A DNA stretch of 37,388 nt from an uncultured Gammaproteobacteria bacterium (GCA_964480695.1 CAYZPO010000002.1:1-37388), one strand, 5' to 3'. Shown: positions 14,195 through 31,836, counted from the stretch's first letter. Numbers and translations are program-made. The notes: generated by a model not told the origin, from the sequence alone.

Positions 14195-15688
14195 ATGGTC
14201 AGAAAAAGAAAGTTAGCGATCCTAATCGCTTTTATCGCCGTGATTTTAGTTGCGGCCGCTGTGATGGTTTATTTATTAATGACAGCTGAACCTGAGGCTG
14301 AGGTTCCGGATTGTGATATCAACGGTGACGGGGTAATTGATGAACGTGAGAATCGTTTGTGTTTTGAAGCTGACATTTTGGGGACCAATCAGACAGATGT
14401 GCAGGTTGAAGAAGAAGGTACGATTGACCTACGCTTACCATCCGAGGGAGCAGGTGGAGGAACCTTGGCTGTTCGTTTATACATTCCAGAAAACCCTCGC
14501 TATGATGAAGGAGCACCAGTTATTGTTTGGGTGCCAGGCGGATATGAAATGAAAGGGATTAATCATGATCTTCCATCGAACGTGGATGATGTAATTATAG
14601 CCACATTTATTTTTCCAGGAGTAACAGATGAGTGGTCAGGTTTTTATTCTGACGGCGAATATGATTGGCGTGGCGAGAACTGTATCCGTGCTTTGGCTGA
14701 CGTGATCTTGTTCGCTGCTGGTGAACTTGAGGATTCAGAAGGAAACACCATTGACGATTTGTCTCCGGTTCCTGTGATTCACGACAACATCGGTGTGATT
14801 GGTGTGTCAAATGGTGGAAACTTGCCAGTAGCTGCCGCAGCTTTGTATGGTGACGAACTTACTGATTACTTGCGTTATATCATCCAATGGGAAACCCCAG
14901 TGTCAAGTCAGGTGGCTAATCGTGACTTCGGTCGCGTCTGGGTTAAAGAAGGTGGTCCAAAAAACGACTACTTTAATCCACGCTACTCCGGATATGGAGA
15001 TTACGAGTTTGCTGTTAGCTATGATGATCTGGCTTATGATCCGACTCAGGAATGGCATCCAGTTTTTCATGACGGTAACGGGGACGGAGTTTATACCACC
15101 TCTAGTTATATGCAGCTCCCAATTCAAGGTCCTGACTATGATATGGATGGTGTAATGTCGCTGGATGAAGATTTTCCTTTGGACGGATATCAAGGCGGAC
15201 CTGATGGTGAGACTTGGTTTTTCTCACGTCCCGTAACTCATGCCATGCGTGATCAAAACATCTTTGTTGATTATGGTTGGCCAGACGATATTGCTAAACC
15301 TGGCGAGGCAGATTATTACTGGGATATCCGCGAGTCAGTTTATATGTACGATGAAGCCCTTGCTAATATTCCTGATCTTGAGGCCATGATTTTGGCCGGT
15401 CTAGTTGATCATGTTCAAACTAACTCTGAGAAACCACACATTCGTCAGGCTTTTGAGGGTTGGTTGGATAATGGTACGTCCTGGGTTCAGATTAATCCTA
15501 ATCCTGAGTATATGGTCGAAGCGTATCCTGGATATCGAAGGCAGGCTAACGACTTACCGGATAATATGCCGAACAAAGCCCCTCATGACTGGGCTGACGC
15601 TGAGGCTTATGCTTTTGCTGAAGAGATCGAAACCGCAGCTTATCAGCTTGCCGGGGTTTATCAAATGATGGACCGCGCCCAACAGTAG
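14195..15688 (+). CDS. Membrane-anchored alpha/beta-hydrolase-fold protein (putative esterase/peptidase), paralog 1
   Basis: ATG lies 1 nt after the giant gene's stop. N-terminal TM helix (LAILIAFIAVILVAAAVMVYLL), dockerin/EF-hand-like DINGDGVID, oxyanion-type VIVWVPGG, nucleophile elbow GVSNG in IGVIGVSNGGN, and Asp motif LAGLVDHV. Confidence 0.6.
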   Translation: MVRKRKLAILIAFIAVILVAAAVMVYLLMTAEPEAEVPDCDINGDGVIDERENRLCFEADILGTNQTDVQVEEEGTIDLRLPSEGAGGGTLAVRLYIPENPRYDEGAPVIVWVPGGYEMKGINHDLPSNVDDVIIATFIFPGVTDEWSGFYSDGEYDWRGENCIRALADVILFAAGELEDSEGNTIDDLSPVPVIHDNIGVIGVSNGGNLPVAAAALYGDELTDYLRYIIQWETPVSSQVANRDFGRVWVKEGGPKNDYFNPRYSGYGDYEFAVSYDDLAYDPTQEWHPVFHDGNGDGVYTTSSYMQLPIQGPDYDMDGVMSLDEDFPLDGYQGGPDGETWFFSRPVTHAMRDQNIFVDYGWPDDIAKPGEADYYWDIRESVYMYDEALANIPDLEAMILAGLVDHVQTNSEKPHIRQAFEGWLDNGTSWVQINPNPEYMVEAYPGYRRQANDLPDNMPNKAPHDWADAEAYAFAEEIETAAYQLAGVYQMMDRAQQ

Positions 15689-15718
15689 GGGGTCAGGTCT
15701 TGATATCTGATTTTAAGC
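15687..15718 (+). repeat. Copy 1 of a 32-bp perfect long-range inverted repeat (agggggtcaggtcttgatatctgattttaagc)
   Basis: This is the exact reverse complement of 31803-31834. It overlaps the TAG stop of the upstream gene and ends 8 nt before the next ATG. Its 3' end is part of a 16-bp palindrome, ATTTTAAGCTTAAAAT (15710-15725). Confidence 0.95.
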
Positions 15719-15725
15719 TTAAAAT

Positions 15726-17117
15726 ATGACAAACAGGACAAGAAATTTGGTTTTATTCGTGATCTTGCCGATCGTTATTATTGTGGTTGCAATTTTGGTG
15801 GCTTGGTTGTTGCGGGTTCCTGAGGTCGAGGTGGTTGAGGGCGACGAAGTGCGTCGTTACGGAGTTGGCGAGGAGTTTGTGACTTACGTTGAATCTGAGG
15901 GCATCGGACGGATTGCTGTTTTGATCGATATTCCGGAGAACCCTCGTTATCCTGAGGGGGCGCCGATTATTTTTGATGTCTCGACCTGGTTTGCTGGCTT
16001 GGTTGGTTTTCATGATAAGTTTGACGCCACAGCGATCGGGGCGATAAATGTTAATCATTTGTGGCCAGGGAACTGTGAATATCGGATGGACGTTTGCTCT
16101 GACGGAGAAAATGATTACGGTGGTCCTGATGCCATTGCTTCGCTACGCGACGCAATTCGTTTTGCTTCTGGAGTGATTCCGAACGCTGATGGTTATTACC
16201 TCGAAGAATTGCTCGAAGTCACACCTTTACTCGATAACGTTGGGCTGTACGCTTCCTCACACTCTGGAGTCGTGGCAACTAATGTCATGGCTTACTACGG
16301 CAGCGAATTTCCAACGGTGAGATATTTTATTGGTCGTGAGAATCCAACTCTCCCAGAGATGTATCCTTTAGAGATTGGGCACTGGGACAGTGAACGCTTG
16401 GATCAGCGTCAGCCGGTTTACAATCCATTTTATGACCCCAATGGCTACACTCGTAACTCGATCGAGGTCGACTATTCTACGGTCGGCTGGATTGAGAACG
16501 TTGAATATCCAGAGGGTCGTCCATATCATGAAGTACCTGGCGGAGACGACTACATCCTCGATGACAAAGGACCGAACATGTGGGGCAAGCGATATTTCTC
16601 TCATGAACTTACTCAGGCTTTGCTTGATAACGGAGCTCTGACTTTAGCCGACTGGCCTGATGATGTGGCTACCCCAGCTGAGACCGCTGAGGTTTGGCCG
16701 TATCGAACTGCCGCGACCAACTATCCGCTCTTGATCAACGAGCTTCCAGATGATTTTAAAGTCATGCTGGTCTTTGCAACTGATGATCATGTGCAAGTTG
16801 CACCAGATCGACCGCACATTCGTCAGGCGTATGACGGATTTAAAAAAACCGCTGGCGTGGACTGGGTGCGGTTGAATCCTGATTTGGTTTATGCTCAGCA
16901 GTTGATTTCTAATGCTCGGGCAGCAGGCTTTTCTGATAATGACGCTAACACTGAGCCTGTGGATTGGGGTGATTCGCGCGACATCGGGCATCCGTATAGC
17001 GGAACCACAATCGAACCAATGTCTCAAGCTGGTATGGCTGAGATGTGCGATCGAGTTTACTTTAATGAGTGGTCAGACAATTTAGATCAGGTGCTGTGGG
17101 ATTATGTGGTAAAATAA
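15726..17117 (+). CDS. Membrane-anchored alpha/beta-hydrolase-like protein, paralog 2 (divergent active-site motifs)
   Basis: N-terminal TM helix. Shares IPENPRYPEGAPII, DDHVQV and PHIRQAYDGF blocks with paralog 1. The elbow reads A-S-S-H-S (VGLYASSHSGVV) and the PGG oxyanion motif is replaced by DVSTWF. Confidence 0.55.
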   Translation: MTNRTRNLVLFVILPIVIIVVAILVAWLLRVPEVEVVEGDEVRRYGVGEEFVTYVESEGIGRIAVLIDIPENPRYPEGAPIIFDVSTWFAGLVGFHDKFDATAIGAINVNHLWPGNCEYRMDVCSDGENDYGGPDAIASLRDAIRFASGVIPNADGYYLEELLEVTPLLDNVGLYASSHSGVVATNVMAYYGSEFPTVRYFIGRENPTLPEMYPLEIGHWDSERLDQRQPVYNPFYDPNGYTRNSIEVDYSTVGWIENVEYPEGRPYHEVPGGDDYILDDKGPNMWGKRYFSHELTQALLDNGALTLADWPDDVATPAETAEVWPYRTAATNYPLLINELPDDFKVMLVFATDDHVQVAPDRPHIRQAYDGFKKTAGVDWVRLNPDLVYAQQLISNARAAGFSDNDANTEPVDWGDSRDIGHPYSGTTIEPMSQAGMAEMCDRVYFNEWSDNLDQVLWDYVVK

Positions 17118-17123
17118 AAACGT

Positions 17124-18467
17124 ATGCCAAAGATCAAACACAAAAACCATGAAGCTAAAGCATGGAACGTGACTGTGAACATGGGTTACGGGCACATGCG
17201 CGCCTCATATCCGCTGTTGGACATGTCCAATGGTGACGGATATTTGATTGCTAATGATTATCCAGGGATTCCTAAAGAAGATCGTCGCATCTGGAAGAAT
17301 TCGCGGAAAGCGTATGAGGCTTTGTCACGAATGAAACAGATTCCTGTGATCGGAGATGAGATTTTCGAACTTTTAGATCGTTGGCAAGAGATCCCATCAT
17401 TTTATCCTAAGCGTGATCTTTCAGCTTCGAACATTCAGGTTCGACAGACTTACAAACTTTTCAAAAAAGGATTTTGTAAGCATCTGGTCCGAATGTTGGA
17501 GGAAGAAAATTTGCCCATGGTTAACACCTTTTTTATCCCGGCCTTAGCTGCTGATTTTTTTGGTTATAAGAATGACATTTATGCCATCATCACAGACACG
17601 GATTTTTCTCGCAGCTGGGTTGCTCTAGAACCAAAGAAATCCAAGGTTAAGTATTTTGCTCCGTCTCGACGCGCTTACGAGCGTTTGAAATTGTACGGAG
17701 TTCCTGAGCGCAATATTTACATGACCGGATTTCCGCTACCACAAGAAAACGTGGGTCTAGAATATGAAAATATTAAACCAGCCCTAGGAGCGCGTTTAAT
17801 CAATCTCGACACTGAAGGTAATTATATGCGTCACCATGAAGAATCAGTTTGTGATCTGCTTGGTGGCTGTTTGCTAAAAAAATCAACGCATCCGTTTACG
17901 ATTATGTTTGCTGTGGGTGGAGCTGGAGCGCAACGTGAAATGGTTGGACAAATGTTAGGAGCGTTAAAAGTTCGTCTTCGACGCGGGCAAATGAAATTGA
18001 TCTTGGTTGCTGGGTCGCGCAAGGACGTGCTAACCCATTTTGAAAAAACGATCAAGCGTAACGGTTTGGATCGTCAAGTAGGGAAGTCGATTGAAATAAT
18101 TTACGCTGAAGACCGCAATGATTATTTCCGAGATTTCAATGTTGCTTTGAAGAAAACCGACGTGCTTTGGACTAAACCAAGTGAACTGTCCTTCTACGCT
18201 GGTCTAGGTGTGCCGATCATTATGGCTCCGCCGATCGGGTCGCAGGAAGAGTTTAATCAGAACTGGTTGCGTAACGTGGGGGCCGGTATTCCACAGCGTG
18301 ATCCGCGTTATTGTGATCAGTGGCTGGACGATTTGCTGCGTAGTGGATGGTTGGCTCGTGCAGCAGTTAATGGATTTACTAACGCGCCTAAACGCGGTGC
18401 CTACCGCATTAAAGAAATCGTGGCTCATCGTAAGCAGGTTATGCCTGAACCGGTTGAACCGGTCTAG
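17124..18467 (+). CDS. GT-B glycosyltransferase of the UgtP/MGDG-synthase (GT28) family; putative glycolipid synthase
   Basis: N-terminal GYGHMRA motif (cf. G-x-GH of UgtP). YMTGFPLPQEN matches ITGIPIRPQF, and TDVLWTKPSELSFYAGLGVPIIMAPPIGSQEEFNQNWL matches the UgtP C-terminal TKPGG...GVP...PGQE.eN block as I remember it. Confidence 0.7.
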   Translation: MPKIKHKNHEAKAWNVTVNMGYGHMRASYPLLDMSNGDGYLIANDYPGIPKEDRRIWKNSRKAYEALSRMKQIPVIGDEIFELLDRWQEIPSFYPKRDLSASNIQVRQTYKLFKKGFCKHLVRMLEEENLPMVNTFFIPALAADFFGYKNDIYAIITDTDFSRSWVALEPKKSKVKYFAPSRRAYERLKLYGVPERNIYMTGFPLPQENVGLEYENIKPALGARLINLDTEGNYMRHHEESVCDLLGGCLLKKSTHPFTIMFAVGGAGAQREMVGQMLGALKVRLRRGQMKLILVAGSRKDVLTHFEKTIKRNGLDRQVGKSIEIIYAEDRNDYFRDFNVALKKTDVLWTKPSELSFYAGLGVPIIMAPPIGSQEEFNQNWLRNVGAGIPQRDPRYCDQWLDDLLRSGWLARAAVNGFTNAPKRGAYRIKEIVAHRKQVMPEPVEPV

Positions 18468-18485
18468 CCTTGCTTGACAGAAGGA

Positions 18486-18514
18486 GTGACAGCCTTTAGG
18501 CTGTTACCTAGATA
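18486..18514 (+). promoter_or_regulatory. Possible sigma70-type promoter (GTGACA-17-TAGATA) ahead of the riboflavin genes
   Basis: Hexamers read at 18486-18491 and 18509-18514. A second TTGACA sits at 18474-18479. A palindrome ACAAGCTaaAGCTTGT lies in the short leader. Confidence 0.3.
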
Positions 18515-18539
18515 ACAAGCTAAAGCTTGTCATTCCGAT

Positions 18540-18887
18540 ATGATAGTTAAAGGTACAGTAATTAAGGGAGCCGGTAGGAGCCGGCTCTTTGGATATCCTA
18601 CAGCTAATGTGGGATATAAACAGGAGCCAGATTTGGCATCCGGAGTTTATGTTGGACAAGCGACTGTGGACGATCAGACCTATCCATGCGTGATCTGTTT
18701 TACAGACACCAAACTGTTTGAGGTCCACTTGTTCGGCCATGATCAGGATTTGTATGACCAAGAGCTTCAGGTCGAAGTTGGACAAAAGGTGAGTGATTTG
18801 AAAAAGTGTGATAGTCTTGAGGAGCTGAAAGAAAAGATCGAGCAGGACATTGCTCAAGCCAAAAAAATCCTATGTTTACCGGAATAA
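18540..18887 (+). CDS. Monofunctional riboflavin kinase (RFK domain only)
   Basis: GTVIKGAGRSRLFGYPTANV...SGVYVGQATVD...FEVHLFGHDQDLYDQELQVEV matches the C-terminal kinase domain of RibF. No FAD-synthetase domain is present upstream. Confidence 0.8.
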   Translation: MIVKGTVIKGAGRSRLFGYPTANVGYKQEPDLASGVYVGQATVDDQTYPCVICFTDTKLFEVHLFGHDQDLYDQELQVEVGQKVSDLKKCDSLEELKEKIEQDIAQAKKILCLPE

Positions 18888-20888: not shown

Positions 20889-20897
20889 ACGCTTTCT

Positions 20898-20926: not shown

Positions 20927-20948
20927 GTAGCCTGGAGCGTGGTTAAAT
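20920..20948 (+). promoter_or_regulatory. Predicted promoter TTGACA-17-(TGg)TTAAAT for the small-peptide/lipoprotein operon
   Basis: Perfect -35 at 20920-20925, a 17-nt spacer, and an extended -10 (TG at 20940-20941, TTAAAT at 20943-20948). Confidence 0.5.
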
Positions 20949-20979
20949 TTTCTCGAATCTGTTCAAAGGGGATGATTCG

Positions 20980-21096
20980 ATGAAAAAAAGAGGACCTTTC
21001 TTCTGTATCCTGGTCTCCGTGGCGATCGTGCTTGCTGTGACTGGTCTGATCCTGAGCATCTTCGGTCCCATGGCTGCCCTGTCCATCGTCAAGTAG
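20980..21096 (+). CDS. Small (38 aa) single-pass membrane peptide
   Basis: ATG at 20980 preceded by aaGGGGAtgattcg. Translation is MKKRGPFFCILVSVAIVLAVTGLILSIFGPMAALSIVK. The stop is 11 nt before the lipoprotein ATG. It is below the ORF-track size cut-off. Confidence 0.45.
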   Translation: MKKRGPFFCILVSVAIVLAVTGLILSIFGPMAALSIVK

Positions 21097-21107
21097 GAGG
21101 AAAGAAC

Positions 21108-21710
21108 ATGAAGAACGCTATCGGGATGATCGCCGGGGGCCTGCTCGGTCTGGCCTTCCTGGCCTCGTCGTGTGCTGGTGGTGACCAGATCGCAGACGAG
21201 GAGACGTCGGTCAATCCGGAGTCGATCAAGGGTGATCAACTCATCATCGAGACCAATGAAGGTGAGAAGATCGAGGTCGACCGGATCATGCAGGTGGTTT
21301 TCCCCATGAACTTTCTGGACCCAGGACAGAACAAGCTTCTGGTTTTCCAGGATCTGGGAATCGAGCATCCGGATCCAGAGAAGCAGATCGTGCCGTGTCC
21401 CGAAACCGAGGGTCGGGTGGAAGTCCAGTTTCTGGAGCCGAGTCAATCGTCTCCGGTCCAGTTCTATCACCTCCCAGGTCAGCGACCCGGTCTGGTGGTC
21501 AGCTACAAATACTGGTCCATTGACAACACCTTCTATCTTCCGGAAGGTTCGTACCTCGAGGACCTTACGGTCGATGAGACCCAGGTCAAGATCGTCTACC
21601 AGTACCAGGCAACTGAAGAGACTGATGAGGTCGCCAAACCCTTCGATGGCCTTGCACCACCGTTCTACGAGACCGAAGACAGTGCTGGCAAGCAGGTCGT
21701 CGTGGACTGA
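21108..21710 (+). CDS. Putative secreted lipoprotein of unknown function
   Basis: Strong SD AGGAGG 7-8 nt upstream. Signal peptide MKNAIGMIAGGLLGLAFLASSC has a lipobox-like LASSC. A terminator hairpin follows downstream. Confidence 0.65.
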   Translation: MKNAIGMIAGGLLGLAFLASSCAGGDQIADEETSVNPESIKGDQLIIETNEGEKIEVDRIMQVVFPMNFLDPGQNKLLVFQDLGIEHPDPEKQIVPCPETEGRVEVQFLEPSQSSPVQFYHLPGQRPGLVVSYKYWSIDNTFYLPEGSYLEDLTVDETQVKIVYQYQATEETDEVAKPFDGLAPPFYETEDSAGKQVVVD

Positions 21711-21752
21711 GTTCCTTCCTTCGGGCAAGTCCGCCCAACTCCCTCAAACGCA

Positions 21753-21791
21753 ACGCCCTAGTGGTCCGACCCACCAGGGCGTTTGTAGTTT
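21753..21791 (+). terminator. Rho-independent terminator after the lipoprotein gene
   Basis: ACGCCCTAGTGG-tccgac-CCACCAGGGCGT (11 of 12 positions paired) followed by TTGTAGTTT. Confidence 0.6.
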
Positions 21792-21909
21792 AAGAGGGGA
21801 GGAGAAGGGCTAGATGAGCTAGAAGAGAAAGAAGGGAAGAGGGGATTTCAGAGATGATAACAATGGATAACCGGCCGGTGAGCTACTGTCGAAACTTACG
21901 CTCGGGTGT

Positions 21910-21952
21910 ACACAAAGAACATCCGGTCGGCTATTCTTTGTGTGCGTGTTTT
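21910..21952 (+). terminator. Second plus-strand terminator-like hairpin
   Basis: Perfect 10-bp stem ACACAAAGAA/TTCTTTGTGT with a 14-nt loop, then GCGTGTTTT. It lies back to back with the minus-strand terminator at 21961-21994. Confidence 0.4.
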
Positions 21953-21960
21953 GGTCTAAT

Positions 21961-21994
21961 AAAAAAGTGAACGACGCTGTCGAAGACAGCGTCG
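21961..21994 (-). terminator. Minus-strand rho-independent terminator
   Basis: On the minus strand: CGACGCUGUC-uuc-GACAGCGUCG (perfect 10-bp stem) followed by UUCACUUUUUUAUU. Confidence 0.6.
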
Positions 21995-22508
21995 GAGTTG
22001 AAGGGGTAGGGCCGGCCCCTGTAGTGCATCAGAAGGGGCTTCCCCCCCGACCGCTTTGATCCCAAAGGATCTTGCTTTCGCTTCAGCGGCCGGCCCATAA
22101 GTTAATTTAACTATAGCACACCTTGTTTAAGTTGTTAATTTCAATACCCGGACACGTGAAGTCCGGGCATTCGACGCGAGTAGGTTAGATTAGACCTTGC
22201 TCTGCAAGCGGTTTCCGTTAGGATTAACCAAGTAGCTCTGATATGGGCTAATGCGATGAGTCTATTCGCTCACCGATCATTGCTACTAACCGCTCTTATA
22301 CCACTTCAGTTCCGATTTTGGGTTAGGACCCTCACGGCGTTACCACCCACTGAAGAAGGGCTCCGGCTACACAGATCGTTGTCCAGGAGTTTGGCGACAA
22401 CTTAAATCTGCGTAGGTGACGGACACTCATGTGCTTCCTTCAAGTATTTTGGTCACACATGGGGTCTACTTGCGGAAAAACGCAAGCGCTCTGGGTAACA
22501 TGACTTGG
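21961..22508 (-). ncRNA. Candidate ~550-nt structured non-coding RNA of unassigned class
   Basis: No ORF of 60 aa or more in any frame across 21813-22700. Bounded by a minus-strand promoter (22515-22543) and terminator (21961-21994). Many nested helices are readable, for example CUUCAGU/ACUGAAG (22355-22349 / 22310-22304) enclosing a GGUG-GUAA-CGCC GNRA hairpin, AGCGGUU/AACCGCU, and the long-range GGGCCGGCC/GGCCGGCCC helix (22096-22088 / 22017-22009). Confidence 0.45.
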
Positions 22509-22514
22509 CAGCAT

Positions 22515-22543
22515 AAGATAACACAGATTTAAGGATCTGTCAA
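22515..22543 (-). promoter_or_regulatory. Predicted minus-strand promoter TTGACA-17-TATCTT driving the candidate RNA
   Basis: -35 at 22543-22538 and -10 at 22520-22515, with an exact 17-nt spacer. Confidence 0.5.
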
Positions 22544-22562
22544 CCCAATAGCTATTGGGTTG
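22541..22562. promoter_or_regulatory. 22-bp perfect palindrome (CAACCCAATAG|CTATTGGGTTG); candidate operator between divergent promoters
   Basis: Perfect dyad symmetry. It overlaps the -35 of the minus-strand promoter and ends 16 nt upstream of the plus-strand -35. Confidence 0.5.
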
Positions 22563-22578
22563 ATCCCATCAGACAGGA

Positions 22579-22607
22579 TTGACATAGGCGGGGTTTTGTG
22601 GTAGTCT
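22579..22607 (+). promoter_or_regulatory. Predicted promoter TTGACA-17-(TGg)TAGTCT for the 69-aa gene
   Basis: Perfect -35 at 22579-22584, a 17-nt spacer, and TG at 22599-22600 preceding TAGTCT at 22602-22607. Confidence 0.45.
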
Positions 22608-22700
22608 GGTTCCTCGCCGTGGAATTCGTACTCTAGGCAGTCAAGCCAAAGGAAGGAGTTCGGATAATCTGGACTCACAACACCCGACTCGGGAGTTAAC

Positions 22701-22910
22701 ATGAGTACGAACGGTGATAGCGATAGTCCTTCCGCAACTACTTCAACCTTGGGTCACGTTTCCACGTGGGATACTCCTTGGACTGAAGAACATTGGAGAG
22801 CCCTTGAGGAAGACATCGAGTCTATGCGTGAGCGTCTCGAAGAGGCGGATCGTATTTTCTTCGGTGATTGTCTCGAGGATGCTTTCGGGATCAAACCCGA
22901 AGAGTCCTGA
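22701..22910 (+). CDS. Small acidic protein (69 aa) of unknown function
   Basis: ATG preceded by GGGAG 6 nt upstream. Predicted helical acidic C-terminal half (EEHWRALEEDIESMRERLEEADRIFF). A terminator-like hairpin follows. Confidence 0.5.
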   Translation: MSTNGDSDSPSATTSTLGHVSTWDTPWTEEHWRALEEDIESMRERLEEADRIFFGDCLEDAFGIKPEES

Positions 22911-22921
22911 CCCATTTTCCA

Positions 22922-22963
22922 AACCGCGCCCGGCGAGCCTGCCTGGCGCGGTTGCCCCTTTTT
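22922..22963 (+). terminator. Terminator-like hairpin after the 69-aa gene
   Basis: AACCGCGCC-N14-GGCGCGGTT followed by GCCCCTTTTT. Confidence 0.5.
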
Positions 22964-22992
22964 ATAAGACACACTAAAGTGTGTCATTCCCA

Positions 22993-23021
22993 TTTACAAA
23001 TCAGGTCAAATAAGGTATCTT
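22993..23021 (+). promoter_or_regulatory. Predicted promoter TTTACA-17-TATCTT; the -10 ends 11 nt before the ATG
   Basis: Hexamers at 22993-22998 and 23016-23021. There is no SD before the ATG at 23033. Confidence 0.4.
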
Positions 23022-23032
23022 AGTTTGTACTT

Positions 23033-23515: not shown

Positions 23516-23517
23516 AT

Positions 23518-25895: not shown

Positions 25896-25896
25896 A

Positions 25897-26739
25897 TTAT
25901 TCAAAACGTTCAAGCCAATGTTTGTCAACTTCGACTTGGAGGTCCAAGAATATTTTTTTGCCCATCACTGCCTCCAGTTCTTTGCGAGCTGACTGGCCAA
26001 CTTCTTTTACTCCGCGAGCACCCTTACCGATGATCATTCGTTTGTGGCGTTCGTCCAAAGTAAGAATTCGAGCTGTGATATGAATCATATCTTCACGATC
26101 CTCGATCTCGTCAACCTCAACGTGAGTCTGGTAAGGAAGTTCTTGACGCAAGCGCAGGAACAACTTTTCGCGAATTAGTTCAGCAATCCAAAAGTCGTTA
26201 GGTAAATTAGTGAGCTGACCTTCTGGGTAATACAGTTCTCCCTCGGATAGCCGTTCAAAAATTTGGTTCTTAAGTTCACCCATGTGGGTTCCATTAAGTG
26301 CTGACACTTCAAGCGTCTCATCAAACTGATCAGTTAAGTCACGATAGTGCTCGTGATATGGCCGACGTTTTTTATCAATTTTGTTTATCACTAAGATCTT
26401 CGGGATTTCAAGGTCTGCGACTAAGCGTAACGTTTGCTTTTCTTCATCACCAATCGAACGGGTCGGGTCAACAACGTAAAGAATAACATCAATATCTTTG
26501 AGTGACTCTTTGACTTTATTGATCAGTTTTTTTGTTAGCTTGTCTTTTTTTTGAAGGACTCCTGGGGTGTCAACAAAAACGATCTGACCCCGCTCTTCAG
26601 TCAGAACGCCATGAATGTTATGTCGAGTTGTTTGCGCCTTAGGAGTGGTAATAGCAATCTTGGAACCAACCAAAGCATTAAGCAAGGTTGACTTGCCAAC
26701 ATTTGATCGTCCAATTAAAACTGCAAATCCTGATTTCAT
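25897..26739 (-). CDS. era: GTPase Era
   Basis: G1 GRSNVGKST, G3 DTPG, G4 NKID, and a C-terminal KH domain (MIIGKGARGVKEVG). Confidence 0.92.
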   Translation of the reverse strand: MKSGFAVLIGRSNVGKSTLLNALVGSKIAITTPKAQTTRHNIHGVLTEERGQIVFVDTPGVLQKKDKLTKKLINKVKESLKDIDVILYVVDPTRSIGDEEKQTLRLVADLEIPKILVINKIDKKRRPYHEHYRDLTDQFDETLEVSALNGTHMGELKNQIFERLSEGELYYPEGQLTNLPNDFWIAELIREKLFLRLRQELPYQTHVEVDEIEDREDMIHITARILTLDERHKRMIIGKGARGVKEVGQSARKELEAVMGKKIFLDLQVEVDKHWLERFE

Positions 26740-27848
26740 AATTTTTCTAAAAGAGTTACTAATTCAACGTGAGGAGTGTGAGGAAACAGATCCAGGGCTT
26801 TGGCTCGAGTGACTTTGTAATGTCGCGACAGGGCCGGGAGTTCTTTGATAAAGCGTTCGTGGTTGCACGAGACATAAACAATGCGTTCTGGTAGAGCTTC
26901 TCGTAGCGTGTCCAAGACCTTATAGTTCATGCCTGCTCGCGGAGGATCCAAGATGACCACATCCGGTTTCTCTCCAGTCCAATCGAATTTTTCAGCCTCA
27001 GATACATGATACTCTACATTATCGATCTTGTTGAGTTCTGCGTTTTGTCGAGCTCCTTTGATAGCAGCTGGCTCGAGTTCAATCCCGATCGCTTTTTTAC
27101 AATCTTGAGCCAGGGCGATTGAAAAGAAACCAGCCCCGCAGTACAGATCCAGAAGCGTTTTGTCTGAGAGATCACCACAAAATTCTTGGATCGTGTCCTG
27201 TAACTTCGCGGCCATGACTGAGTTAGTTTGGAAAAACGAATTTGGATGAATGCGATAAGAAAAGCCATTAATCGTTTCCGTAATCCAGGGATCGCCTTTG
27301 ACCGGAATAATCGTTCCGGCCCGTGACACGTCAGTCGGTTGATCGTTGATTCCGATTACGATCGAGGTTGCTAGATCAGTTAGGTCAGTTTTCAGTTTGT
27401 CAGTTTTCAGTTCTCCGTTGTTCTCGCTCACTAGCACCATCACCATTCGCTCGTCCGTATTCTTTCCTTCGCGGATCACGCAGTATCGGAACACTCCCTG
27501 TTTCTTTTTCTGATCCCAAAACGGTAGGCCAGTGGTTCGGGCCCACTCACGGACGCGACGTAATACCTCGACTCCATCTTTTGAGAGCAGATAGCATTCA
27601 TCAAGATCCACAACCTGATCCCAAGAACCAACTGCTTTCAGTCCCAGCATATCAGGTTGACCAAAGGCGTAATCCATGCGATTGCGGTAATGTAGAGGTT
27701 CAGAACATGGTTCGACACGGTCGATCGGAATGACACCCTTTAGGGTGTTATTTATGGCTTCAAGTTTCTGCTTCAACTGCACCTTATATTCCAAATCAAA
27801 CCAAGGACAGCCGCCACATTTACCCCCATTTGGACAATCTAGTTTCAT
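26736..27848 (-). CDS. TrmA/RlmD-family RNA (uracil-5)-methyltransferase, no TRAM domain
   Basis: N-terminal Cys cluster CPNGGKCGGCPW, SAM motif DLYCGAGFFS, and DPPRAG plus VYVSCN catalytic motifs. Confidence 0.8.
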   Translation of the reverse strand: MKLDCPNGGKCGGCPWFDLEYKVQLKQKLEAINNTLKGVIPIDRVEPCSEPLHYRNRMDYAFGQPDMLGLKAVGSWDQVVDLDECYLLSKDGVEVLRRVREWARTTGLPFWDQKKKQGVFRYCVIREGKNTDERMVMVLVSENNGELKTDKLKTDLTDLATSIVIGINDQPTDVSRAGTIIPVKGDPWITETINGFSYRIHPNSFFQTNSVMAAKLQDTIQEFCGDLSDKTLLDLYCGAGFFSIALAQDCKKAIGIELEPAAIKGARQNAELNKIDNVEYHVSEAEKFDWTGEKPDVVILDPPRAGMNYKVLDTLREALPERIVYVSCNHERFIKELPALSRHYKVTRAKALDLFPHTPHVELVTLLEKL

Positions 27849-27877
27849 AACGGAGCTTATGGTACCATAAGAGGCGT

Positions 27878-28588
27878 ATGCTTTCCATTGTTATTATTAC
27901 CAAAAATGAGGAGGAGAATTTGCCTAAATTATTAGCCTCGATCAAGGGGCAGACGGTTCAGCCCAAGGAAATCATTGTGGCTGACGCTAAGTCCGAGGAC
28001 AAGACGCGCGAGATTGCTCGTAAACATGGGTGCAAGGTTGTCGAAGGTGGACTACCAAGTGTTGGACGCAATATGGGAGCTAAGGTAGCGACTCAGGAAT
28101 ATGTTTTGTTCTTTGACGCTGATGTGCAGTTGTTTGAAACTGATTTGTTAGATAAGAGTTTGCGTGAGATGAAGAAACGTAAACTCGATTTTGGAACATT
28201 TGATGTTAAGCCACTTGACGGAGGCATTGTTGATGAGATTCTTCATTGGTTATACAACAAGTATGTGCGTTTGATCGCACCGTTACACCAGCACGCAGCT
28301 GGTTTTTGTATTTTGGTGCGTCGGGATTTTCATGAACGGGTTGGTGGGTTTGATCAGAAGATTACTTTTTGTGAGGATCATGAGTATGCTGTGCGTGCCA
28401 ACAAAGCTGGTCGGTATGGCATCTTGTCACCAGCGGTTCACACTTCAGTTCGCCGCTTTGATCGCGATGGACGATTGAACATTGCTATCAAGTATATTAT
28501 GGCTGAGCTCCACTTTTGGTTCAAAGGCCCGATTTATGGTGATAAGTTTAATTACACCTTTGAACATGAAAAGAAGAAAAAGAAGTAA
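27878..28588 (+). CDS. Family 2 glycosyltransferase
   Basis: SIVIITKNEEENLPKLLASI, the FFDADV (DxD) motif, and the expected ~236 aa length. Confidence 0.75.
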   Translation: MLSIVIITKNEEENLPKLLASIKGQTVQPKEIIVADAKSEDKTREIARKHGCKVVEGGLPSVGRNMGAKVATQEYVLFFDADVQLFETDLLDKSLREMKKRKLDFGTFDVKPLDGGIVDEILHWLYNKYVRLIAPLHQHAAGFCILVRRDFHERVGGFDQKITFCEDHEYAVRANKAGRYGILSPAVHTSVRRFDRDGRLNIAIKYIMAELHFWFKGPIYGDKFNYTFEHEKKKKK

Positions 28589-28590
28589 CT

Positions 28591-29685
28591 ATGAGTGACC
28601 AGGATGAAAAGATAAAAGACCTATATTTAAAACAGATTTCTCTTTCTGAATGGTTTGAAGATATTGATCACCCAGAACTCGAAAAACTACGTGTTGAAGA
28701 TAATGAAAAAAGAGAACGTTTACGCAGGCTGAATGAAATTATTGGCCTGCCTTTTGATCGACCAGTTAAGTTTTCATCAGACGATGTGGTTAGTCGCTCG
28801 CCTGAGTTTGAAAAGCACCTTCAAGAACACGGTGGTGAGTTGTGCGCGATGCGATTGATCCCGATCACCCCAGGGGTACCAAAGCTCCGCATGCGTGGTT
28901 ACTCAGTTGAAAGGGTGGTTCGAGAATGGTTTCCAGAACAAAAGATCAACTCGCCAGATTATCGAGTTGAGTTTATTCCGCATTCAGCGAATAATGATTG
29001 GTCAACTATTTTCGTGATTAATCAGCATGGAACTTTTGGTGAAATTATTTCCGGCGGACACTATAATTTGACCCAGGGTCTATATAAAGAGAACCAGCCG
29101 ATAATTTTTGAAAGTGATTTTGAATCACTGACACTTTCGGAAAATAATCCAGCGGCAAAACAGCACCTCAACGAATTAATTGAAAAATTAAAAGTGTCTG
29201 ATCAACAAGTTCAGCAAAAGTTGAATCAAGAGCTCGGGGCAGAGTTTGCTAATGATTATTTGTGTGGTTATTTTGAATCCGTCCATTCCGAATATGGGAT
29301 TTGGTACGTTGATTACAATCGGATTCTCGGTCAGATGTATTCTGATTTTAAAGTTACCACTGCTTCAGGTACGGGTTTATCAGGTAGTGTCGGAGCACCA
29401 GGTGTTTTTAAAGGACGAGTGCGAATTGTGGCCGATCCGAAGGGAGTGGAGCTAACTAGCGATGAGATCCTGGTATGTGACATGACCACGCCAGATTATG
29501 TACCGTTGATGAAGCAGGCCGGAGCGATTGTAACTGACCGAGGTGGTATTCTGTGTCACGCCGCGATCATTGCTCGAGAGCTTGGCAAACCATGTTTGAT
29601 CGGGACAGGTTCAGCAACGGAAGAGCTGAATGATAGTGATCTAGTAACAGTTGACGCTGATAATGGAGAGATTAGATATGAGTAA
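28591..29685 (+). CDS. PEP-utilising-enzyme mobile (swivelling His) domain protein with an uncharacterised ~260-aa N-terminal region
   Basis: The C-terminal GAPGVFKGRVRIV...EILVCDMTTPDYVPLMKQAGAIVTDRGGILCHAAIIARELGKPCLIG matches the PEP_mobile pattern, including the phospho-His position. Confidence 0.7.
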   Translation: MSDQDEKIKDLYLKQISLSEWFEDIDHPELEKLRVEDNEKRERLRRLNEIIGLPFDRPVKFSSDDVVSRSPEFEKHLQEHGGELCAMRLIPITPGVPKLRMRGYSVERVVREWFPEQKINSPDYRVEFIPHSANNDWSTIFVINQHGTFGEIISGGHYNLTQGLYKENQPIIFESDFESLTLSENNPAAKQHLNELIEKLKVSDQQVQQKLNQELGAEFANDYLCGYFESVHSEYGIWYVDYNRILGQMYSDFKVTTASGTGLSGSVGAPGVFKGRVRIVADPKGVELTSDEILVCDMTTPDYVPLMKQAGAIVTDRGGILCHAAIIARELGKPCLIGTGSATEELNDSDLVTVDADNGEIRYE

Positions 29686-30208
29686 GATTGAAGTCGAAGT
29701 GCAAAGTTTTATTTCCCAGGAGCGGTATGAAGAGCTGGTGGCTTGGTTTCGGGATAACGCTGAATTGATTAAACAAGACTCGCAAGAGACTTATTATTTT
29801 GATAGTAAAGCTGACTTGCGAATTCAACGTTATGGTTCAGGAGCAAAGTTATGGCTTAAGAGTGGTGGACCTCACGATCAGATCCGTGAAGAAATAGAAT
29901 TTCATTTTGAACGAGATCAGTTTGGTGATCTACAGAAATTTTGTCAGGCTCTTGGACACCAGGTTGAAATCAAATGGTCCCGCGACCGGCAGCAGTTTGA
30001 TTGGGAAGGAATCAAGGTATGCCTCGACCACACTCGCGGGTATGGGTATATTATTGAGATGGAAAAGGTGTGTTCTGAGGAAGACAAGGAACAGGTGCTG
30101 GAGATGCTGCTGAATAAATTCGACGAGCTAGGTATCACAGTCACTCCACAAGAGGAGTTTGAAGAAAAATTTAAAGAATATAAAAATAACTGGCAGGAGT
30201 TGGTATGA
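29678..30208 (+). CDS. CYTH (CyaB/ThTPase-like triphosphate tunnel) domain protein
   Basis: I prefer the ATG at 29678 (8-nt overlap with the upstream gene, GGAGAG upstream). N-terminal IEVEVQ stands in for ExExK. LDHTRGYGYIIEMEKV matches the LD..G.G.F.EIE motif. Confidence 0.75.
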   Translation: MSKIEVEVQSFISQERYEELVAWFRDNAELIKQDSQETYYFDSKADLRIQRYGSGAKLWLKSGGPHDQIREEIEFHFERDQFGDLQKFCQALGHQVEIKWSRDRQQFDWEGIKVCLDHTRGYGYIIEMEKVCSEEDKEQVLEMLLNKFDELGITVTPQEEFEEKFKEYKNNWQELV

Positions 30209-30627
30209 AGCTTTGGATTGCGTATAAGATGCGGGGGACTGATTTTGATCAGGTCAAAAAAGATCTTCGAGAACTACTAAAGCTGATCGAAGCCAAGGGT
30301 CATGAAACCAGGATCATGATTCGTGATATTCAGGACTGGGATCCGGACAGCATGCCCATGGATCAACTGGTGCACCGGGCGCACGAGGAAATGGAGCAAT
30401 GTGATGCTTGTTTGTGTATTTATCCAACCGATGAGCCGAGCGAGGGACGCGGTTGGGAAGGTGGATATTTTCGTGGGTGCGGCAAACCGACGATTATGGC
30501 GATCCATAAATCAATTACCAACGGTTATAACGAGGCTCTGTACTGCAAGAACCCAGCTTGTGCTGATTGTCCGGTTACCCCTGTGATCCGTTATGAAACT
30601 TTCCAAGATATCGCTGATGCTTTTTAG
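30205..30627 (+). CDS. Small Rossmann-like protein, possibly nucleoside 2-deoxyribosyltransferase-like
   Basis: ATGA overlap with the CYTH gene, with AGGAG upstream. PSEGRGWEGGYFRGCGKP loosely resembles the D.GT.fE.Gya...gkP block of the NDT/YtoQ-like family. Confidence 0.35.
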   Translation: MKLWIAYKMRGTDFDQVKKDLRELLKLIEAKGHETRIMIRDIQDWDPDSMPMDQLVHRAHEEMEQCDACLCIYPTDEPSEGRGWEGGYFRGCGKPTIMAIHKSITNGYNEALYCKNPACADCPVTPVIRYETFQDIADAF

Positions 30628-30653
30628 ACCCAAAGATAAATTTGTGTTAAAAT
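30625..30653 (+). promoter_or_regulatory. Predicted promoter TAGACC-17-(TGt)TAAAAT; the -10 ends 9 nt before the ATG
   Basis: Hexamers at 30625-30630 and 30648-30653, with TG at 30645-30646. There is no SD before the ATG at 30663. Confidence 0.4.
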
Positions 30654-30662
30654 AAGCTTAGT

Positions 30663-31808
30663 ATGAGGTGGATTTTATCCACAATTTTCGTGCTAGTATT
30701 AGCTCCGCTGTCCGTACAAGCTGCCACAGCGGATCTTTCAATTACAGCATCAGACATCACTTTTTCTAAGGACACGCTTATTGTAGGTGACAGCATCCGA
30801 ATTTATGCACAGGTGCGCAATGTTGGTGATACGGACGTAACCGGCTATGTTTCTTTTTTCCAAAGCGATGTACCGATCGGAGATTCTCAAGTTGTTTCGG
30901 TTCGTGCTGGCGGTCATGCGGACGAGGTTTATGTTGATTTCGTAGTTCCGTCAGGTGATTTTAATGTCCTGGCACAGATTCGGGGAACAGATCCGCAGGA
31001 CACAAATTCCGCTAACGACGAAGCTTTGAGTACGATGTATCATCCAATCTATGATGATGACAATGATGGAATTGAAAATGATGAAGACAACTGTCCAAAT
31101 GTAGCTAACGCATCACAAACCGATTCTGATGGCGATGGGTCTGGGGACGCTTGTGACAACGATGATGATAATGATCAGTTAACTGATGATCAGGAAGAAG
31201 ATTTGGGAACCGACCCAACCGATTCAGATACCGATGATGACGGGACAAATGACGCTGACGATGCGTATCCAACTGACCCTGAACAACAGACGATTGTGGT
31301 TCCGGCTACAGAGCCAGAGACAACAACCGTGGTCGAGAGTGAAACTCAGGAATCGACTTCAGAAACAACTTCTGAAGCAGAAGTATCAGAAAACCAGACA
31401 ACCAGTCAACTAGACAACCTAGAAAACTCCTCTTCCGAATCCCCAACACGCCGTTCACTTCACGTTTCACCAAACGCGGCCTTTACTTATGAACAAACGA
31501 ATTGGAACACTTATCTTTTCCGTGCCCAGGTTCCAGTTGATGCTGGTTACGAAATCGAATGGGATTTCGGTGACGGAGTTACTTCGACTCGGTACGAAGT
31601 CGAGCATGTTTATCATGGTTACACAGATTACCTGGTCACCTTGCGTGTGACTGATCCAACCGCTCGTGTCTCGCATGACGCTGCCACAGTCGGAGTATCT
31701 TTCTTCAATCTACATAATCGCCTGATCCAGACTTTAATTGCCATTTTAGTGATTGTTCTGATATCGTCGATCTCAGTTTTCGTTCGCTCGCGGTCTTCTC
31801 GGGCTTAA
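30663..31808 (+). CDS. Surface protein with CARDB-like domain, thrombospondin type-3-like Ca-binding repeats, PKD domain and a C-terminal TM anchor
   Basis: Signal peptide ending VQAATA. ADLSITASDITFS...VRNVGDTDVTGYV (CARDB-like). DDDNDGIENDEDNCPNVANASQTDSDGDGSGDACDND (TSP3). WDFGDGVTS...VTLRVTD (PKD). C-terminal LIAILVIVLISSISVFVRSR. Confidence 0.75.
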   Translation: MRWILSTIFVLVLAPLSVQAATADLSITASDITFSKDTLIVGDSIRIYAQVRNVGDTDVTGYVSFFQSDVPIGDSQVVSVRAGGHADEVYVDFVVPSGDFNVLAQIRGTDPQDTNSANDEALSTMYHPIYDDDNDGIENDEDNCPNVANASQTDSDGDGSGDACDNDDDNDQLTDDQEEDLGTDPTDSDTDDDGTNDADDAYPTDPEQQTIVVPATEPETTTVVESETQESTSETTSEAEVSENQTTSQLDNLENSSSESPTRRSLHVSPNAAFTYEQTNWNTYLFRAQVPVDAGYEIEWDFGDGVTSTRYEVEHVYHGYTDYLVTLRVTDPTARVSHDAATVGVSFFNLHNRLIQTLIAILVIVLISSISVFVRSRSSRA

Positions 31809-31834
31809 AATCAGATATCAAGACCTGACCCCCT
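31803..31834 (-). repeat. Copy 2 of the 32-bp perfect inverted repeat
   Basis: gcttaaaatcagatatcaagacctgaccccct is the exact reverse complement of 15687-15718. It overlaps the TAA stop at 31806-31808 and ends 2 nt before the murJ ATG. Confidence 0.95.
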
Positions 31835-31836
31835 CC

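What the first reader, a model, noticed from the sequence alone, without database searches (positions are those of the whole stretch)
15687..31834. Perfect 32-bp inverted repeat pair 16.1 kb apart, each copy wedged between a stop codon and the next start codon
agggggtcaggtcttgatatctgattttaagc (15687-15718) is the exact reverse complement of 31803-31834. A 32-nt perfect match cannot plausibly arise by chance within 37 kb. Both copies occupy the same micro-context. Each overlaps the stop codon of the upstream gene (TAG 15686-88, TAA 31806-08) and ends 8 or 2 nt before the next ATG (hydrolase paralog 2, murJ). Possible explanations:
- recombination sites that allow inversion of the 16-kb segment between them (which contains both strands' operons)
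- members of a dispersed intergenic repeat family
- a shared protein-binding site co-regulating two envelope operons
The element contains TCAG-N10-CTGA symmetry around an EcoRV-like GATATC core.
Basis: seen in the sequence. Interest (0 to 1): 0.62.

Follow-up and report, generated by a model that had tools for sequence, protein, structure and literature searches.

The report
Solo transposase-end repeats at gene junctions
The two perfect 32-base inverted copies are separate recent insertions of a small mobile repeat, the same sequence that brackets a tyrosine (HUH) transposase gene in this group of tiny marine Uhrbacteria, so they are an ordinary genomic parasite and not a switch that flips the 16 kb between them.

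Summary
AGGGGGTCAGGTCTTGATATCTGATTTTAAGC lies at 15687-15718 (+) and 31803-31834 (-), and such a match is never seen in shuffles.

It is not a private pair. Contigs from the same marine metagenomes, at the same depth, carry further copies as singles and hairpin doublets. A related Candidatus Uhrbacteria MAG carries six near-identical copies.

In that MAG, in a contig from the window's own sample, and at all eight homologous loci examined, GGGGTCAGGTC... flanks a ~285-aa Y1/HUH transposase gene as terminal inverted repeats. This protein resembles the REP-associated tyrosine transposases (RAYT), and the motif fits the published GGGGWSAS signature of TIRYT/"TIRtron" repeats.

Both window sites are empty in the two closest relatives. 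Deleting exactly the 32-mer restores an ATGA stop/start overlap at both junctions.

Gene order and orientation across and inside the 16 kb match the nearest relative. Contigs that span the repeat show only the window arrangement, and no recombinase gene lies in the segment.

Verdict: these are two independent solo TIR-type repeat insertions, a new member of a known kind. The inversion-switch and co-regulation readings are not supported. Mobilisation by the transposase is inferred, not shown.

The parts
15687..15718 (+). Copy 1 of the 32-nt solo TIR-type unit (A-GGGGGTCAGGTCTTGATATCTGATTTTAAGC). It is inserted 7 nt upstream of the ATG of ORF 15726-17117. Its first bases turn the upstream gene's end into TAG.
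   Evidence: The site is empty in relatives L094 and L095. Deleting 15687-15718 gives ...AAAATATGACA, a TGA stop overlapping the next ATG. The unit is aligned with the family in A1.
31803..31834 (-). Copy 2 of the same unit, in the opposite orientation. It is inserted 2 nt upstream of the murJ ATG. It supplies the last codon and the stop (GCT TAA) of the PKD/TSP3 gene.
   Evidence: The site is empty in relatives L014 (...CAATAAcATG) and L015 (...ACATGATTTTC). Deleting 31803-31834 gives ...CGGCCATGATTTT, the same ATGA overlap as in L015. Spanning contigs from runs X6 and X13 confirm the junction.
14195..15688 (+). Upstream gene at site 1 (497 aa, no family hit). Its C-terminus was altered by the insertion.
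   Evidence: Orthologs are 76-78% identical in L094 and L095 and end in TAA 1-3 nt before the next ATG.
15726..17117 (+). Downstream gene at site 1 (463 aa, a paralog of the upstream gene). It is now separated from that gene by 37 nt.
30663..31808 (+). Upstream gene at site 2 (381 aa, with PKD and thrombospondin-type-3 repeats). Its final Ala codon and stop codon are encoded by the inserted unit.
31837..33456 (+). murJ (lipid II flippase), the downstream gene at site 2.
   Evidence: Pfam MurJ, E = 8.2e-90. Orthologs are 77-79% identical in L014 and L015.

Best explanation
Each 32-mer is a solo copy of a short, non-autonomous repeat. The repeat derives from the terminal inverted repeat (left end) of a 'TIRtron', a single-copy gene for a RAYT-like Y1/HUH tyrosine transposase (TIRYT) bracketed by inverted GGGGTCAGGTC... 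ends.

The unit spread to a handful of places in this ~1-Mb Uhrbacteria (CPR/Patescibacteria) genome, as singles and as hairpin-forming doublets. The two window copies are independent insertions made after this lineage split from its closest sequenced relatives. Each landed in a junction where one gene's stop overlapped the next gene's start (ATGA). Insertions are probably tolerated there in a very gene-dense genome. Their inverted, G-run-outward orientation is a coincidence (1 chance in 4).

Shown here: the repeat family, its identity with the transposase-gene ends, the empty sites, the precise 32-nt footprint with no target duplication, and the unchanged orientation of the 16-kb segment.

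Inferred: that the TIRYT enzyme moves the unit. By analogy with TnpA of IS200/IS605 and TnpA-REP, it would cut and rejoin single-stranded DNA at the GGGG end during replication. It is also inferred that the copies have no dedicated host function.
For: 1. More than two copies exist. Logan contigs (k = 31) of runs X1-X5 break at the repeat. The 32-mer unitig has about twice the flank depth (17.8 against 7.2/5.8 in X2). Foreign flanks appear, including a doublet, GGGGTCAGGTCTTGATATCTGATTTTAAGCTTAATATCAAGTATCAAGACCTGACCCC. At 80% likeness, at least four further diverged singles or doublets appear at the same depth.

2. Ca. Uhrbacteria MAG JBDRNK01 (~76% aa identity to the window's proteins) has 6 copies of GGGGTCAGGTCTTGATATTTGAT. 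Four of them are solos that end at the same ...TTTTAAGC boundary.

3. In that MAG two inverted copies bracket a 291-aa gene (L005 983-1858). It hits Pfam Y1_Tnp (3.4e-11) and NCBIfam REP_Tyr_transpos (81.9 bits, cut-off 80).

4. The ortholog P0004 (71% identity) lies on a contig of the same run that carries the window's PKD gene (SRR24302412). Its depth is similar (6.6 against 7.2), it sits in the same nadD-like/mraZ synteny, and it is bracketed by inverted GGGGTCAGGTCTTTATATTTTA.

5. GGGGTCAGGTC starts the upstream repeat at 8 of 8 homolog loci. An inverted partner lies at the 3' end in all 8. It is exact at six loci and reads GGGGTCAAGTC at two (L115, L117).

6. Both sites are empty in both nearest relatives. 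Removing exactly 32 nt restores ATGA overlaps, and no target duplication is seen.

7. P0004 has an invariant HUH motif and Tyr. It aligns to E. coli TnpA-REP 4ER8. Its AlphaFold model (pLDDT 86.9) best matches 4ER8 (E = 2.9e-07, TM 0.78), followed by the ISDra2 and IS608 TnpA structures.

8. Literature: TIRs flanking TIRYT genes share GGGGWSAS and form moderately abundant single, dimer or grouped families (PMC3733652; PMC6006769). GGGGTCAG fits that motif.
Against: 1. The TIRs of the one transposase gene recovered from the window's sample match the 32-mer continuously only over the first 13 nt (GGGGTCAGGTCTT) and at scattered positions beyond. The exact master copy or cognate enzyme in this genome is therefore not identified.

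2. Contigs were assigned to the window's genome only by same run, similar depth and synteny.

3. No biochemical or population evidence of movement exists for any TIRYT.

4. The solo unit is not a hairpin, so the IS200/REP recognition model does not transfer directly.

5. Copy number is low (roughly 5-10), and the whole genome could not be scanned.

6. A secondary host role, such as uncoupling translation of adjacent genes, is not excluded.
Confidence: 0.78

Rival explanations
1. The pair are crossover sites for a programmed inversion of the 16.1-kb segment, either by a site-specific recombinase or by regulated homologous recombination.
For: There is a perfect 32-bp inverted pair. 32 bp is about the minimum length for RecA-dependent exchange (general knowledge). 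The k = 31 contigs of the high-coverage runs cannot distinguish the two orientations.
Against: Both sites are empty in the two nearest relatives, so the pair is recent and was not inherited as a switch. Gene order and strand inside and outside the segment match relative CAZDDW01. Contigs that span a repeat give only parental junctions: X9 at site 1, and X6 and X13 at site 2. No recombinase or invertase gene lies in the segment, which carries riboflavin genes, RimK, VKOR, a beta-CASP nuclease, Era, a GT2 glycosyltransferase and a PEP-utilising enzyme. The same unit occurs elsewhere as unpaired singles.
Confidence: 0.04
2. The copies have been adopted as cis-acting sites, for example a shared protein-binding operator or an RNA element that co-regulates, terminates or uncouples the two operons.
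For: Both copies lie exactly between a stop and the next start. They replace an ancestral ATGA translational-coupling overlap with a 28- or 37-nt spacer. The unit contains a TTGATA hexamer resembling a -35 box (seen in the sequence).
Against: The two copies have opposite orientations relative to transcription at the two sites. The unit has no stable structure as a single strand. It is absent from the orthologous junctions of relatives that have the same operons. Family members also lie between convergent genes and in frame inside recJ. The Rfam search found no match in the window.
Confidence: 0.08
3. The two outward-facing ends define a 16-kb composite element that the TIRYT enzyme can move as one piece.
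For: The geometry is the same as in a TIRtron, with G-runs facing outward on both sides.
Against: The 16 kb sits in its ancestral, collinear position in relatives that lack both ends, so it did not arrive as a unit. The outward orientation has a 1 in 4 chance. Y1 enzymes act on short single-stranded stretches (established for IS608 and ISDra2). No excision joint was seen. The one 'skip 16086' joint is the doublet locus aligning to both sites, as the full 414-nt contig shows.
Confidence: 0.03
4. The repeat is an assembly artefact or chimera.
For: The window comes from a metagenome assembly, and the repeat length (32) is close to common k-mer sizes.
Against: Both junctions are reproduced without differences in independent runs from four studies. 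The unit is also found in an unrelated assembly of a sister species.
Confidence: 0.01

Closest known systems
TIR repeat families of TIRtrons / TIRYT genes (Di Nocera, De Gregorio & Rocco 2013, PMC3733652; subclass 2.1 of TnpA-Y1 in Quentin et al. 2018, PMC6006769)
   Same: A RAYT-like Y1 gene is bracketed by terminal inverted repeats that start with GGGGWSAS (here GGGGTCAG). The 3' repeat can overlap the gene end. The protein has a C-terminal HTH extension. The same TIR occurs elsewhere in the genome as singles and dimers at moderate or low copy number.
   Different: The host is a CPR/Patescibacteria lineage, which is not covered by either paper or by any paper found. The dispersed unit is a sharply bounded 32-mer that looks like the left end minus ~11-13 nt. 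Empty-site evidence for recent, footprint-precise insertion is given here, which those surveys did not report.
REP / REPIN elements with RAYT (TnpA-REP, E. coli YafM, PDB 4ER8; Pseudomonas REPINs)
   Same: A domesticated, single-copy, vertically inherited Y1 transposase gene is flanked by the repeat it presumably disperses. Repeats are extragenic, and doublets form long hairpins (dG -20.3 kcal/mol). The catalytic domain's best fold match is 4ER8.
   Different: The single unit is not a palindrome and has no GTAG/GTGG-tagged hairpin. Copy number is about ten, not hundreds. The protein is ~120 aa longer and carries an HTH tail.
IS200/IS605 (IS608, ISDra2) and their miniature derivatives
   Same: Same HUH/Y1 fold. 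No target-site duplication. Presumably single-strand 'peel and paste' chemistry.
   Different: IS200/IS605 ends are different left and right subterminal hairpins, not inverted repeats. The transposase gene is multi-copy. The specific tetra- or pentanucleotide target typical of that family was not found here.
Invertible DNA switches (Hin/Gin segments, fimS, shufflons)
   Same: Short inverted repeats bracket a DNA segment.
   Different: There is no recombinase, no conservation of the repeats at these positions, a 16-kb cargo of housekeeping genes, only one orientation seen, and family members scattered elsewhere.
Tn3-family 38-bp terminal inverted repeats (GGGG...TAAG)
   Same: The unit has a GGGG start and a TAAG near the inner end, which made this an early lead.
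   Different: The length is 32 nt, not 38. There is no DDE Tn3 transposase, no 5-bp duplication, and the TAAG is not conserved in other TIRYT ends. This reading was rejected.

Membership tests
TIR-type repeats of TIRtrons (TIRYT-associated) | The repeat starts with the GGGGWSAS motif | tested here: met
   The unit reads (A)GGGGGTCAG.... The motif is quoted from PMC3733652 and PMC6006769.
TIR-type repeats of TIRtrons (TIRYT-associated) | The same sequence brackets a RAYT-like Y1 gene as inverted repeats | tested here: met
   In L005 (sister MAG) both ends are identical to that MAG's solo copies over 26 nt, and one base (T for C) from the window 32-mer. L013 (same run as the window) has inverted ends that match the 32-mer continuously only over the first 13 nt. 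GGGGTCAGGTC starts the upstream repeat at 8/8 TIRYT loci.
TIR-type repeats of TIRtrons (TIRYT-associated) | Additional dispersed copies (single, dimer, grouped) in the same genome | tested here: met
   Extra flanks, a doublet locus and diverged copies appear at window-like depth in runs X1-X6. Caveat: they are assigned to this genome by depth and co-occurrence only.
TIRYT / TnpA-Y1 subclass 2.1 protein (the presumed mobiliser) | HUH motif and catalytic Tyr in a TnpA-REP-like fold | tested here: met
   H60/H62 and Y119 are invariant in 59 homologs. They align with the 4ER8 HMH and Tyr. The fold search puts 4ER8 first (E = 2.9e-07, TM 0.78). P0001 exceeds the NCBIfam REP_Tyr_transpos cut-off.
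TIRYT / TnpA-Y1 subclass 2.1 protein (the presumed mobiliser) | C-terminal HTH / Bac_DnaA_C-like DNA-binding extension | tested here: inconclusive
   A profile of the last ~70 aa hits generic HTH domains (DeoR 0.008, Tn3 resolvase 0.055). Pfam gives HTH_38 at 0.083. No DnaA hit was found. The single-sequence model was unusable (pLDDT 45).
TIRYT / TnpA-Y1 subclass 2.1 protein (the presumed mobiliser) | The enzyme binds, cleaves or moves the repeat | not testable with these tools
   This needs biochemistry or mobilome sequencing.
REP / REPIN | The single unit is an imperfect palindrome (hairpin) with a 5' GTAG/GTGG tag | tested here: not met
   ssDNA fold: dG -1.0 kcal/mol, z -0.69, with 41 of 200 shuffles folding as well. 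There is no GTAG/GTGG tag.
REP / REPIN | Inverted doublets form a long hairpin | tested here: met
   Doublet locus: dG -20.3 kcal/mol, z -9.55. The full locus is in a 414-nt X6 contig.
Invertible segment / recombinase switch | A recombinase gene in or beside the segment | tested here: not met
   Pfam scans of ORFs between 15.7 and 31.8 kb and of most flanking ORFs show no recombinase. ORF 26736-27848 and three ORFs right of murJ went unscanned because one search failed.
Invertible segment / recombinase switch | Both orientations present in the population | tested here: inconclusive
   Only parental junctions appear in the three spanning contigs. High-coverage runs are k = 31 contigs that break at the repeat. 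No raw-read runs were offered.
Invertible segment / recombinase switch | Repeats conserved at the same positions in relatives | tested here: not met
   Both sites are empty in CAZDDW01 and JBDRNK01.
Tn3-family terminal repeats | 38-bp IR, Tn3 DDE transposase, 5-bp target duplication | tested here: not met
   The unit is 32 nt. No ORF approaching 1000 aa lies between the repeats. There is no duplication at either site.

The most novel reading that the evidence does not exclude
The sharply bounded, non-palindromic 32-nt unit is itself an active mobile element rather than a decayed half of a doublet. That would make it among the smallest mobile elements known. It would be moved in trans by a TIRYT enzyme in ultra-small CPR genomes. 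It would insert without a footprint, preferentially into ATGA stop/start overlaps and occasionally in frame into genes such as recJ. This would give the first population-level handle on how TIRYT enzymes, whose activity has never been shown, recognise and move their ends.
Probability: 0.3. Interest if true: 0.55.

Novelty: new member of a known kind. Interest (0 to 1): 0.3.

Why it matters
The finding explains a striking sequence feature as ordinary mobile DNA and removes a tempting but wrong 'genome switch' reading.

It also shows that streamlined CPR/Patescibacteria genomes host TIRYT-type transposase/repeat systems. More than 8000 homologs were found, many of them from Patescibacteria.

It provides clean before-and-after sites: empty junctions in two relatives and an exact 32-nt footprint. 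Such evidence of recent movement was missing from the surveys that defined these repeats.

For annotation, such units create or shift stop codons and break translational coupling. For assembly, a 32-nt repeat fragments k = 31 graphs.

Tried and rejected
- **Exact 32-mer in 185,579 species genomes:** 0 hits. The window variant in JGI metagenome contigs also gave 0 hits, and the degenerate core gave only 2 loci.
- **Tn3-type IR idea (GGGG...TAAG):** rejected on length, on the absence of a transposase and a duplication, and because TAAG is not conserved at other TIRYT ends.
- **Classical REP:** rejected, because the single unit does not fold.
- **Looking up window proteins to find alternative assemblies:** MurJ and the 463-aa protein are not on record. 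The PKD protein is found only on one Logan contig.
- **Direct inversion test:** not possible in the high-depth runs, because k = 31 is shorter than the repeat. Low-depth runs gave three spanning contigs, all parental. The 'skips 16086' joint is the doublet locus, not an excision.
- **RNA runs:** none listed.
- **Rfam:** nothing in the window, nothing in 20.8-23.1 kb at E <= 1, and nothing in the three TIRYT loci scanned (L013, L005, L117).
- **Target-site motif or duplication:** none found.
- **DnaA-domain similarity of the TIRYT tail:** not demonstrated.
- **A single-protein search for TIRYT loci in genomes:** reached only one distant extra locus.
- **One Pfam call:** failed on a bad frame.

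Full report
**Observation.** The sequence AGGGGGTCAGGTCTTGATATCTGATTTTAAGC is at 15687-15718 on the + strand, and its exact reverse complement is at 31803-31834. Allowing three mismatches there are only these two copies in the window, and none is expected in 100 dinucleotide-preserving shuffles. Copy 1 overlaps the TAG of ORF 14195-15688 and ends 7 nt before the ATG at 15726. Copy 2 contains the last codon and TAA of ORF 30663-31808 and ends 2 nt before the murJ ATG at 31837.

**The pair is not private.** The window is held by marine and seawater metagenome runs from four studies.
- In the k = 31 Logan contigs of runs X1-X5, every contig stops at the repeat.
- The 32-mer unitig has about twice the depth of the flanks (17.8 against 7.2/5.8 in X2).
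- Flanks appear that do not come from the window.
- One of these loci is a doublet: GGGGTCAGGTCTTGATATCTGATTTTAAGC-TTAA-TATCAAGTATCAAGACCTGACCCC. It was recovered whole on a 414-nt contig in X6.
- At 80% likeness, at least four more diverged singles and doublets appear at the same depth as the window.

The unit is therefore a low-copy dispersed family, probably 5-10 loci. Assignment of these contigs to one genome rests on depth and co-occurrence only.

**Relatives and the associated gene.** The exact 32-mer is absent from 185,579 species genomes. The core GGGGTCAGGTCTTGATAYYTGAT occurs six times on five contigs of a Candidatus Uhrbacteria MAG, JBDRNK01. Four of those copies are solos with the same outer and inner boundaries as the window unit and differ from it by one base (T for C).

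On contig L005, two inverted copies bracket a 291-aa gene. The 3' copy encodes its last residues and stop (...KSNIKT*). The protein hits Pfam Y1_Tnp (3.4e-11) and NCBIfam REP-associated tyrosine transposase (81.9 bits, cut-off 80).

Laying the sample contigs on this gene showed a homolog at window-like depth. It is P0004 (284 aa, 71% identity), on a 3457-nt contig of SRR24302412. This is the same run that carries the window's PKD gene. It sits in the same position as in the MAG and in a third species, between a nadD-like gene and mraZ. It is bracketed by inverted GGGGTCAGGTCTTTATATTTTA.

A second paralog in the MAG, and homologs in five other lineages, are all flanked in the same way. GGGGTCAGGTC starts the upstream repeat at eight of eight loci. 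It is followed by 10-20 lineage-specific bases, and an inverted partner lies at or just past the stop codon. That partner reads GGGGTCAAGTC at two of the loci (L115, L117). The alignment shows that the solo unit equals the gene's left end with about 11-13 nt removed, the stretch that holds a TATAAT.

**The copies are insertions.** The two closest genomes are CAZDDW01 and JBDRNK01, with 76-79% aa identity for the flanking proteins. Both have these junctions, and both lack the unit.
- Site 1 in the relatives reads ...CAAAATTAAtATG and ...AAATAAaatATG.
- Site 2 in the relatives reads ...CAATAAcATG and ...ACATGATTTTC.

Removing exactly the 32 nt from the window gives ...AAAATATGACA at site 1 and ...CGGCCATGATTTT at site 2. 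In both cases a TGA stop then overlaps the next ATG, the same architecture as in JBDRNK01 at site 2. Removing 31 nt at site 2 fuses the two genes. The perfect repeat is therefore the whole inserted unit, and there is no target-site duplication. The insertions changed the C-termini by a few residues and replaced translational-coupling overlaps with spacers of 37 and 28 nt.

**Inversion test.** Orthologs of the window's genes in CAZDDW01 contig 5 have the same order and strand before, inside and after the 16-kb segment. The segment is therefore in its ancestral orientation.

In low-coverage runs the graph does not branch, and some contigs span a whole repeat. X9 covers 15584-15806, X6 covers 31493-31969, and X13 covers 31485-31846. 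All three are identical to the window. No inverted junction was seen.

The segment encodes riboflavin-pathway genes, a RimK-type ligase, VKOR, a beta-CASP nuclease, Era, a glycosyltransferase and a PEP-utilising enzyme, but no recombinase. High-coverage runs cannot decide, because k = 31 is shorter than the repeat, and no raw-read or RNA runs were available. Rare RecA-mediated flipping cannot be excluded, but nothing points to a switch.

**Structure.** The single unit has no meaningful fold as a single strand (dG -1 kcal/mol, z -0.7). The GATATC 'core' is GATATT in the sister family. The doublet is a strong hairpin (dG -20.3 kcal/mol, z -9.6).

**The protein.** In 59 homologs the HUH histidines and the tyrosine are invariant. 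P0004 aligns to E. coli TnpA-REP (4ER8), with HUH and Tyr matched. Its model (pLDDT 86.9) best matches 4ER8 (E = 2.9e-07, TM 0.78), then the ISDra2 and IS608 transposases. The last ~70 residues resemble generic helix-turn-helix domains.

**Comparison with what is known.** Di Nocera et al. (PMC3733652) described RAYT-like genes flanked not by REP hairpins but by terminal inverted repeats sharing GGGGWSAS. They named these TIRtrons and TIRYTs, and found that some TIRs form moderately abundant families of singles, dimers and groups. Quentin et al. (PMC6006769) placed most TIRYTs in TnpA-Y1 subclass 2.1, which has HTH or DnaA_C-like tails.

The window unit (GGGGTCAG...) and its gene meet the features that could be tested here. 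It fails the REP definition because the single unit forms no hairpin. No paper in the searched library treats TIRYTs in Patescibacteria. I therefore file it as a new member of a known kind.

**Mechanism.**
- Shown: the family exists, it matches the transposase-gene ends, insertion was recent and precise, there is no duplication, and either orientation occurs.
- Inferred: the TIRYT enzyme cuts single-stranded DNA at or next to the GGGG end and re-ligates the unit into new sites, by analogy with IS608, ISDra2 and TnpA-REP. Survivors accumulate where a gene-dense genome tolerates 32 extra bases, namely stop/start junctions, gaps between convergent genes and domain linkers.
- Weak points: the recovered TIRYT's own ends match the 32-mer continuously only over 13 nt, so the cognate enzyme or master copy in this genome is unidentified. 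How a non-hairpin unit would be recognised is also unknown.

**Rivals.** I considered a programmed inversion switch (0.04), an adopted regulatory site (0.08), a composite 16-kb element (0.03) and an assembly artefact (0.01). These are set out in the rival explanations with their evidence.

**Verdict.** The feature is of modest interest (0.3). The most novel reading still open is that this 32-nt unit is itself an actively transposing mini-element of CPR bacteria (probability about 0.3).

Noticed in passing
L013 1754 and 2705; L005 921 and 1885; L117 2948; L118 2090 and 2128; L119 1015 and 1053; L002 4948: Perfect DnaA-box 9-mers (TTATCCACA) lie 2-30 nt outside the TIRs of the mraZ-linked TIRYT gene in three species and next to one solo copy. 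In L118 and L119 the box plus TIR is tandemly duplicated with a 38-nt period. 11 of the 24 boxes in 1.1 Mb of fetched loci are within 30 nt of a TIR. None lie at the five other TIRYT loci. The protein tail is an HTH, but similarity to DnaA was not shown.
   Followed up: partly
window 18509-18539 (+), 22969-22993 (+), 27724-27754 (-); also L094 42-57 (-): A second small repeat consists of a 6-bp hairpin with conserved ends (ACA...TGT), three covarying inner stem pairs (AGC/GCT, CAC/GTG, CCC/GGG), the loop TAAA, and CATTCC[GC]AT. Two copies lie just upstream of gene starts. The third lies within the longest-ORF call for 26736-27848. There are 3 matches against 0.01 expected. Its function is unknown.
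   Followed up: partly
window 20943-23030: About 2 kb is present here but absent between the orthologous RimK-like and 23033-ORF genes of relative L094. It holds a 261-aa ORF with no family hit and about 1 kb of GC-rich, structured-looking non-coding DNA. There is no Rfam match even at E <= 1.
   Followed up: partly
L006 1472-1501 (JBDRNK01): One family member sits in frame inside recJ. It adds LKIKYQDLTP in the linker between the DHHA1 and RecJ_OB domains. No insert-free RecJ was compared.
   Followed up: partly
L001 1686, L003 6148, L008 6471, L009 1506, L010 1027/1098: The same 23-nt core occurs once each in an Endozoicomonas isolate, an Actinomycetota MAG, a 'Klebsiella' MAG and a metagenome contig, and as a doublet on a second metagenome contig. 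No TIRYT homolog was found by tblastn anywhere on these up-to-8-kb loci. This could reflect horizontal spread, strong constraint on the end sequence, or bin contamination.
   Followed up: partly
window 55-14193: A giant 4712-aa ORF is built from tandem units with 333-nt and 1038-nt periods and 60-86% nucleotide identity. It is probably a surface protein. Its domains were not identified.
   Followed up: no
L014, L016, L017, L094 and other loci (record titles): Several of the closest relatives, including a complete 1.0-Mb chromosome (OZ246408.1), are deposited as 'uncultured Gammaproteobacteria'. Their genes are most similar to Uhrbacteria/Patescibacteria, so the taxonomic labels are probably wrong.
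   Followed up: no
L002 5762-6679 (JBDRNK01): A second TIRYT paralog (283 aa, 52% identical to the first) has its own end variant, GGGGTCAGGTCTTTACTTTTAGAC. One genome can therefore hold several gene/end pairs.
   Followed up: yes
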